A stretch of 64,000 nt of DNA from Eledone cirrhosa. Taxonomy: Eukaryota. The stretch's first letter is position 1. Every line of letters starts with the position of its first letter. Where the stretch lies: NCBI GenBank assembly GCA_964016885.1, contig OZ024740.1, forward strand, positions 15,376,001-15,440,000. Reading direction: 5' to 3'. The notes beneath the pieces were generated by a model that was not told where the DNA came from, did not search any database, and was given only the letters and a program-made list of their open reading frames with translations. A program made the position numbers and the translations under genes. This document shows positions 42,752 through 43,272 of the stretch, one piece after another.

Positions 42752-43265
42752 ATGTATATATAATGTATTTTGCAATACACTGTATGCTTAATTAAAAGCA
42801 TTTCGAAGACCTTACGCTATTGTTTTAGAGTAGTGACAGTCTCACTTACTTTAAATGTTCAGCAAACAGGGGAGATAAAGCTGACAGAGCTCTGTTTCGT
42901 ACTGATTGGTACTTATCAAAGCCAAGTACTCCACATGTTTTCTGAAAATCATGAATGTTTGATTCTTATAGAATTCTAGTAATAATCAGGAACTGATTAT
43001 ACAGAGCGGTTGCCGGTCGAGCAGAAATTGAAAATTAGAATTGGTGCTCTGAAATAGCGATATATATATGAATGTATATATAGTACGAAACAGAGCTCTG
43101 TCAGCTTTATCTCTCCTTGTTTGCTGAAAATTTAAAATAAGTGACACTGTCACTACTCTAAAACAATAGCGTAAGGTCTTCGAAATGCTTTTAATTAAGC
43201 ATACAGTGTATTGCAAAATACACTATATATACATTCATATATATATAGCTATTTCAGAGCACCAA

Positions 43266-43272
<7 letters not shown>
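42752..43272. mobile_element. Diverged ~320-bp retrozyme-like element: one monomer (-) joined to a partial inverted copy (+)
   Basis: Shares AGAGCGGTTGCCGGTC..GCAGAAATT..TGCTCTGAAATAGCGATATATA and CTGTATG..CATTT(C/T)GAAGACCT..CGCTAT with the 310-bp unit; inverted arms 42752-42902 and 43082-43234; in (TA)n. Confidence 0.8.
42880..42922 (-). ncRNA. Type I hammerhead, U3:A8 core variant
   Basis: Reverse complement: GCT-TTGATAA-GTAC(CAATCA)GTAC-GAAAC-AGAGCTCT-GTC-AGC. Confidence 0.78.

What the first reader, a model, noticed from the sequence alone, without database searches (positions are those of the whole stretch)
42752..43272. Sister element with the same scaffold but a different hammerhead module
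Seen: the ~320-bp monomer keeps the terminal region of the 310-bp unit (AGAGCGGTTGCCGGTC, TGCTCTGAAATAGCGATATATA, GAAGACCT..CGCTAT) and the same end points. Its HHR is unrelated in sequence: UUGAUAA core, GUAC stem II, 12-nt palindromic stem III, GUC site. Inference: the conserved ~130-nt block is the cis signal recognised by the mobilising RT/endonuclease, while the ribozyme is conserved only in structure or was swapped.
Basis: partly seen in the sequence, partly recalled or inferred. Interest (0 to 1): 0.75.

Follow-up and report, generated by a model that had tools for sequence, protein, structure and literature searches.

The report
Sister retrozymes sharing a Penelope-priming domain
This is one copy of an abundant 320-base jumping repeat with a predicted self-cutting RNA; it descends whole from the same ancestor as the neighbouring 310-base repeat, its ribozyme changed in place rather than being swapped, and the shared folded segment is where its insertions end, likely the start signal for a Penelope-type transposon enzyme.

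Summary
The 320-bp monomer (S) shares a 179-column block with the 310-bp unit (U) at 76% identity, still significant after masking AT-rich DNA. It carries a type I hammerhead with a U3-A8 core. S is a genome-wide family (about 1,600 marker hits), inserted into (AT)n as two opposed arms with Penelope-type ends.

The swap idea is not supported. S and U are colinear throughout, intermediate families exist, scaffold and ribozyme trees agree, and the ribozyme simply evolves faster with compensatory changes.

The cis-signal idea is largely supported. S, U and the intermediate family T end at the same two sites inside the block, and its hairpins covary out to a distant sister family. However, the block was not at the 3' end of any of 70 GIY-YIG loci. 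One S/Neptune hybrid insertion points to a candidate helper. Cleavage and transcription are untested.

This is a new member of a known kind (non-LTR retrozyme). The scan noted the 310-bp family and a similar sister pair before on other DNA of this genome.

The parts
42732..42750 (.). (AT)n target, left flank; merges with end site A of the left arm
   Evidence: end class A
42740..43085 (-). left arm, about 345 nt: one full monomer plus short overhangs, 3' end at site A
   Evidence: L259
42752..43071 (-). 320-bp S monomer
42752..42820 (-). 3' domain, first half: closing strand, conserved loop and hairpins 1-2 leading to site A
42829..42850 (-). hairpin between ribozyme arm and 3' domain; predicted in S, T, U and V
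42856..42948 (-). ribozyme arm: 15-bp basal stem (42934-42948 with 42856-42870) carrying the hammerhead; this copy has three departures from the family majority in or next to the stem
42880..42922 (-). type I hammerhead: stem I, U3-A8 core 42913-42919, stem II 42899-42912, palindromic stem III 42884-42895, predicted cut between 42883 and 42882
42965..43002 (-). two small hairpins ending in a TATA-like loop; positional equivalent of the octamer-TATA segment of families V and X (possible promoter, untested)
43003..43071 (-). 3' domain, second half: site A, site B (monomer position 38), enclosing helix and GC-rich hairpin
43082..43272 (+). right arm, 190 nt, 5'-truncated inside stem II, ending with the 38-nt tail at site B
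43271..43329 (.). (AT)n target, right flank
47420..50856 (.). two-armed array of the 310-bp sister unit U (comparison partner)
57630..62568 (.). second two-armed array of unit U

Best explanation
This is one two-armed insertion of a non-coding 320-bp repeat family that descends, along its whole length, from the same ancestor as the 310-bp unit, and that is likely copied into (AT)n DNA by a Neptune-type Penelope-like reverse transcriptase/endonuclease starting at two fixed sites inside the shared folded domain. Shown here: homology, colinearity, covariation, two fixed 3' ends, the (AT)n context and read-through of the ribozyme site. Inferred: the unit is transcribed; the enzyme binds the three-hairpin domain and primes at sites A and B from the two sides of a cut, giving two opposed arms and the 38-nt tail; the template is uncut at the ribozyme (circle or multimer); the hammerhead is active, probably best as a dimer through the palindromic stem III; the ribozyme arm evolves fast because only its fold is constrained, while the 3' domain is also constrained in sequence by protein binding. 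The U3-A8 core of S is a derived compensatory change, not an imported module.
For: Colinearity: the core starts in the same alignment column in S, T and U, stem II spans 13-14 nt in all, and the main length change in the module is in stem III, 6, 9 and 12 nt. Intermediates: S4 (CUGAGGA, 84-87% to S), T (CUGAUGA, 74-80% to S, 64% to U across the ribozyme) and further subfamilies. Trees of scaffold and module (57 units) both give U-T-S4-S; the module is faster in all 28 family pairs, e.g. S-S4 0.02 vs 0.23, S-T 0.06-0.13 vs 0.35, S-U 0.22-0.25 vs 0.57. Non-core module similarity U vs S, T and S4 was reached by 0 of 2000 shuffles each, U vs S3 by 11 of 2000. The basal stem is in exact register with double changes in 9 of 15 pairs; stem I 3 of 3, stem II 4 of 4; 92.7% of cells pair against 33-48% when slid (12 sequences). 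Ends: 55 of 56 S arm ends, 45 of 48 T and 25 of 26 U fall in classes A or B; 17 of 19 two-armed S insertions pair A with B. In a sample chosen by an internal marker, 104 of 120 arm calls end at A or B and 106 of 120 run through the cut site. Family V aligns significantly in the 3' domain (0 of 500 shuffles for S, T and U), not with S or T in the promoter-like segment; hairpins 1-2 pair in 96.9% of cells. Published: a Penelope protein starts at two internal RNA sites, the tail lies between them, and RNA 3' of the start is needed (PMC11167929, parts 1-2 of 4 read). Young Neptune-type elements with intact RT + GIY-YIG are present, and one insertion joins an S dimer to such an element between two (AT)n runs.
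Against: No autonomous element carrying the block was found: 0 of 70 GIY-YIG loci have it at their 3' end, a small and biased sample of 10,597 candidates. The candidate helper has a 63-nt tail, not 36-38 nt, and no detectable 3'-domain match. The hybrid is a single case among 279 family loci screened, some overlapping, could be an insertion with target deletion, and 0 of 30 further helper loci had a joined arm. The active monomer fold of S lies 2.6 kcal/mol above the predicted minimum. Shuffle controls for covariation ignore relatedness, and part of the module similarity may come from the shared stem layout. S4, S3 and three other subfamilies were one sequence each in the tree. In the preprint, 8 of 9 predicted retrozymes showed no cleavage.
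Confidence: 0.78

Rival explanations
1. The ribozyme module of S or U was swapped in from an unrelated element by template switching, with the scaffold kept.
For: S-U non-core module divergence is 57%, against 22-25% in the block. Template switches do occur in this system (L371). U3-A8 cores exist in unrelated Neptune 3' ends in the same genome.
Against: Same position and register, a graded series of intermediates, congruent trees and residual similarity. The same rate contrast is seen among close S subfamilies, where homology is not in doubt. An ancient swap between homologous sisters cannot be excluded.
Confidence: 0.08
2. Much of the block is conserved because it is an internal promoter carried in each unit, not an enzyme-binding signal.
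For: A TATA-like loop lies about 20 nt before the basal stem in S, T and U. At the equivalent place families V and X carry an octamer, in V 43 nt before a TATA box; three distinct U6 promoters of this genome have an octamer and a TATA box, 46-47 nt apart in the two I counted by eye.
Against: S, T and U lack the octamer, and I saw no match to U6 upstream regions beyond AT-rich noise (output partly cut). The part conserved out to V is the 3' domain, where the ends fall, not this segment. This rival can hold for about 50 nt of the block and is compatible with the best explanation.
Confidence: 0.3
3. The S hammerhead is slow or dispensable for copying; the family spreads from uncut read-through transcripts.
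For: 106 of 120 arm calls cross the cut site. Ribozyme mutants did not affect insertion by a Penelope protein in vitro (PMC11167929). S arms are short (median 326 nt).
Against: All three stems covary across subfamilies, and 77 of 81 sampled cores keep U3-A8. Four arms in three insertions begin exactly at the cut site (after removing one double count and one misaligned call), and 5 loci join two arms there. This is only a hint, as other positions have equal or larger clusters and the site is a 4-nt palindrome.
Confidence: 0.25
4. A DNA-level satellite or foldback element with a chance ribozyme-like motif.
For: The locus is largely palindromic and AT-rich.
Against: Dispersed copies, fixed 3' ends with variable 5' ends, and compensatory changes in RNA helices.
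Confidence: 0.02

Closest known systems
Metazoan non-LTR retrozymes (Cervera and de la Pena 2020, PMC7229834, parts 2-4 of 6 read; Li, Clavereau and Pollet 2026, bioRxiv 10.64898/2026.07.22.740005, parts 1-3 of 5 read), especially the two axolotl families Rtz331/Rtz353
   Same: 150-450 bp non-coding unit with one type I hammerhead, low GC, thousands of copies, coexisting with Penelope-like elements; two related repeat families with different hammerheads in one genome are already described in axolotl.
   Different: S is mostly monomeric (94 of 120 arm calls have one marker), has a U3-A8 core and a 4-bp/12-nt stem III. In the parts read, these papers do not map insertion ends or define a shared priming domain. 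No matching pLTR was found here, unlike 24 of 57 Xenopus families with transposon matches. Their supplements were not read.
Penelope-like elements, Neptune clade, and their non-autonomous derivatives (Craig et al. 2021, PMC8557442, passages read; Frangieh et al. 2024, PMC11167929)
   Same: Inverted 5'-truncated partner arm, 30-40 bp tail at one end, (TA)n targets, two internal start sites, hammerhead upstream of the 3' end.
   Different: No ORF; no sequence match to the 3' ends of the sampled autonomous families, whereas non-autonomous Chlamys generally resemble their helpers at the 3' end.
U3-A8 hammerhead variants (Cervera and de la Pena 2014, PMC4209133; Perreault et al. 2011, PMC3088659; passages read)
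   Same: The same core covariation, reported in Schistosoma Penelope-like elements and described as active in vitro; palindromic helix III and high variability of these motifs within a genome are also reported.
   Different: Here the change can be placed on a family tree; it also occurs in family X and in a T-like copy.

Membership tests
Type I hammerhead ribozyme | Core boxes, three helices and NUH site in type I order | tested here: met
   U3-A8 is a published variant
Type I hammerhead ribozyme | Covariation of helices I-III | tested here: met
   double changes in 3 of 3, 4 of 4 and 1 of 3 pairs
Type I hammerhead ribozyme | Match to an Rfam hammerhead model | tested here: not met
   no match for S at E<=1; U only 23 bits, below the cut-off; not defining for variant cores
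Type I hammerhead ribozyme | Self-cleavage | not testable with these tools
   needs an in vitro assay; only a weak genomic hint
Non-LTR retrozyme | Short non-coding unit with one type I hammerhead, many copies, no LTR or ORF | tested here: met
Non-LTR retrozyme | Tandem copies | tested here: met
   26 of 120 arm calls carry two or more markers; this window copy has only one full unit
Non-LTR retrozyme | Expressed as linear and circular RNA | not testable with these tools
   no RNA run was available
Penelope-mobilised non-autonomous element | Inverted 5'-truncated arm and 30-40 bp tail at one end | tested here: met
   17 of 19 two-armed insertions pair A with B; B modal at position 38
Penelope-mobilised non-autonomous element | (TA)n insertion bias | tested here: met
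Penelope-mobilised non-autonomous element | 3' end or pLTR shared in sequence with an autonomous element | tested here: inconclusive
   0 of 70 GIY-YIG loci, from 10,597 candidates; one hybrid insertion
Chimeric element by ribozyme swap | Conflicting trees or sharp homology breakpoints around the module | tested here: not met
Element with an snRNA-type internal promoter | Octamer plus TATA at U6-like spacing | tested here: not met
   absent from S, T and U; present in sister family V

The most novel reading that the evidence does not exclude
A superfamily of at least five retrozyme lineages (S, T, U, V, X) carries a self-evolved, structurally conserved RNA domain that recruits and primes a Neptune Penelope enzyme without resembling the helper's own 3' end: a mimic acting like a telomerase-RNA template domain. 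The ribozyme arm and the promoter segment evolve around it as fast modules, and stem III length may tune how many rounds the enzyme copies (long arrays in U, about one unit in S). The S/Neptune hybrid names the enzyme to test.
Probability: 0.3. Interest if true: 0.65.

Novelty: new member of a known kind. Interest (0 to 1): 0.4.

Why it matters
Mobilisation of animal retrozymes by Penelope-like enzymes is proposed in the papers read but not shown there. This family series marks out a roughly 115-nt RNA domain with two fixed start sites and a young, intact candidate helper, so the published in vitro Penelope assay could be applied directly. It also gives a natural series of hammerheads (C3-G8 and U3-A8; stem III of 6 to 16 nt) on one scaffold. 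The element class, the core variant and sister families with different ribozymes are already known, and the scan noted similar pairs before.

Tried and rejected
Search for the block at autonomous 3' ends: blastn, nhmmer and a covariance model over 70 GIY-YIG loci (50 clustered into 8 families; the 20 added looked like the same families by eye) found only separately inserted short elements. Sixteen isolated tail-motif hits were all S, T or U copies or subfamilies.

U6-type promoter in S/U: 20 U6 loci compared, no match seen beyond AT-rich noise.

RNA-editing signature: private substitutions were strand-symmetric (S: A>G 14, T>C 20; T: 16, 23), so not supported.

Expression: no RNA holder listed. 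DNA contigs of three coded runs show S-like and U-like sequence in two organisms; presence only.

Intermediates between T and U: one pattern gave 14 hits, all variants of known families.

Active-fold energies for T and U are invalid (my script mis-parsed stem III) and were dropped.

Stem III length versus array length: fits U (by hand, 100 hits in 25 arms, 14 with 3 or more units) against S (5 of 120 arm calls with 3 or more markers), but family V has a 6-nt stem III and short arrays, so it is kept only as a speculative lead.

L372 (S beside a truncated Neptune copy) is ambiguous and was not counted as a hybrid.

Literature: five searches ran; none listed a paper on these families. The label 'cephalopod/octopus' comes from earlier scan notes and was not tested.

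Full report
Observation. The locus is a two-armed insertion between (AT)n runs: a 345-nt arm on the minus strand with one full 320-bp monomer (S, 42752-43071) and a 190-nt arm on the plus strand (43082-43272). S shares a 179-column block with the 310-bp unit (U) at 76% identity. The score is 136 against at most 35 in 1000 shuffles, and 70 against at most 28 after masking AT-rich windows. A structural descriptor finds the hammerhead exactly as described; Rfam does not.

Family. The window lies in a 3.0-Gb animal genome. S had 1,060 candidates, of which the 40 scored were 96-100% identical. An S marker has 1,652 exact hits and the S ribozyme pattern 1,550; a U marker has 18,350 and the shared 16-mer 18,504; all controls were 0. 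The U3-A8 core is a family trait, not a defect of this copy: 74 of 81 sampled cores read UUGAUAA and 3 UUGAAAA, and stem II occurs in three fully paired versions (35, 13 and 11 of 81).

Swap or descent. S and U align end to end, with the core in the same column. Other families fill the gap: S4 with CUGAGGA, T (2,737 candidates) with CUGAUGA and a 9-nt stem III, and S3 with compensated stems I and III. Trees of scaffold and ribozyme arm both give U-T-S4-S, and the arm diverges faster in all 28 family pairs. Outside the core, the U arm is still more like S, T and S4 than any of 2000 shuffles. The 15-bp basal stem is in exact register across S, T and U with 9 double changes. The ribozyme therefore changed in place, and U3-A8 is derived on the branch to S. 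U3-A8 is a published natural variant (PMC4209133, PMC3088659) and is common at Neptune 3' ends in this genome. Five subfamilies were single sequences, and the shuffles ignore relatedness.

What the block is. Consensus folding gives a three-hairpin domain closed by a short helix, followed by a helix that encloses site B and the GC-rich hairpin. Insertion ends of S, T and U fall at two sites, A (positions up to 12) and B (modal 38), and opposed arms pair A with B in 17 of 19 S cases. In a sample picked by an internal marker (74 loci, 120 arm calls), 104 end at A or B, 5' ends scatter, and 106 cross the cut site. A distant family V (about 342 bp) has the same order of elements and matches significantly in the 3' domain, with near-gapless hairpins that covary, but does not keep the GC-rich motif. 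A fifth family X has the domain, a U3-A8 core and a 16-nt palindromic stem III. V and X carry an octamer where S, T and U do not; host U6 promoters have an octamer plus TATA box. The block thus has two parts: a deeply conserved priming domain and a variable, possibly promoter segment.

Mechanism. Inverted truncated arms, a 30-40 bp tail and (TA)n targets are Penelope-like marks (PMC8557442). A purified Penelope protein starts reverse transcription at two internal sites on either side of the tail and needs RNA 3' of the start (PMC11167929). I infer that a Neptune enzyme binds the domain and primes at A and B from both sides of a cut, on a template uncut at the ribozyme. Stem III self-pairing between two copies is predicted at -20.1 kcal/mol against -1.8 as a hairpin, which favours dimeric cleavage; this is a prediction. 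Four arms in three insertions start exactly at the cut site, and 5 loci join two arms there: a weak hint of cleavage in vivo.

Helper. The block was not at the 3' end of any of 70 GIY-YIG loci. Screening 279 family loci revealed L371: an S dimer ending at site A, a 27-nt inverted S piece, Neptune sequence 3033 to 405 in the same sense, then a second arm from 3006 to the Neptune 3' end, all between (AT)n runs. The A-plus-B pairing across two RNAs fits one event with a template switch; insertion with target deletion is the alternative. This Neptune family has an intact 938-aa RT + GIY-YIG frame and copies 98-100% alike, with its own two end sites 63 nt apart. The copy in L371 is about 95% identical to the other copies in the coding part. 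It is one case; 0 of 30 further loci showed a joint.

Comparison and verdict. S works like, and by the testable features is, a metazoan non-LTR retrozyme; expression, circularity and cleavage are untested. Two related families with different hammerheads are known in axolotl, and descent from Penelope termini is proposed in a 2026 preprint. Earlier notes of this scan cover U many times and a C3-G8/U3-A8 sister pair on other DNA; they are leads, not support. New member of a known kind; interest 0.4 for the mapped priming domain and candidate helper.

Noticed in passing
L371 (G000:C1:173728500-173733400): Candidate hybrid insertion: S dimer joined to a Neptune element; left end is S site A, right end is the Neptune 3' end.
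   Followed up: yes
L229-L252; L205:60-370: Family V, about 342 bp: same architecture, octamer and TATA segment like host U6 promoters, canonical core, 6-nt palindromic stem III.
   Followed up: partly
L341-L370: Family X, about 316-340 bp: shared 3' domain, octamer, U3-A8 core, 16-nt palindromic stem III.
   Followed up: partly
L214, L220, L228: Further S/T subfamilies with U3-A8 cores, one on a T-like scaffold, suggesting repeated origin of the variant.
   Followed up: no
L061, L075/L109 and L127 families: Several autonomous Neptune families end with U3-A8 hammerheads with a 6-nt palindromic stem III; the L109 family is very young and has a 63-nt tail.
   Followed up: partly
window 43278-43549: Near-perfect inverted repeat (136-nt arms including flanking AT runs) with a hammerhead-like core at 43416; probably a two-armed insertion of another family.
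   Followed up: no
window 43640-43782 and 44495-44583: Opposed pair with canonical type I hammerheads (Rfam Hammerhead_1, 25-29 bits, below the cut-off), 770 nt apart.
   Followed up: no
window 44774-44910: Weak match to the 3'-domain model (24-30 bits); the same sequence recurs in L085, L093, L098, L108 and L186, possibly a more distant sister.
   Followed up: no
window 45420-46430: Direct repeat with a period of about 590 bp next to (AT)n.
   Followed up: no
window 21793 and 51030: Two more hammerhead-descriptor hits with long stem II inserts.
   Followed up: no
window 17180-19258 (-) and 14018-14653 (+): LINE-type reverse transcriptase frames, the first with C2H2 zinc fingers; not Penelope-like.
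   Followed up: partly
L142; L117:7007-7210; L126:5130-5325: A U6 copy sits inside the sequence of a small hairpin-shaped hammerhead element, a possible hybrid retrocopy; that element weakly resembles U around the ribozyme.
   Followed up: no
L129-L148: U6 genes carry an octamer about 78 nt and a TATA box about 30 nt upstream; most lie in a 1.8-kb tandem cluster on one contig.
   Followed up: partly
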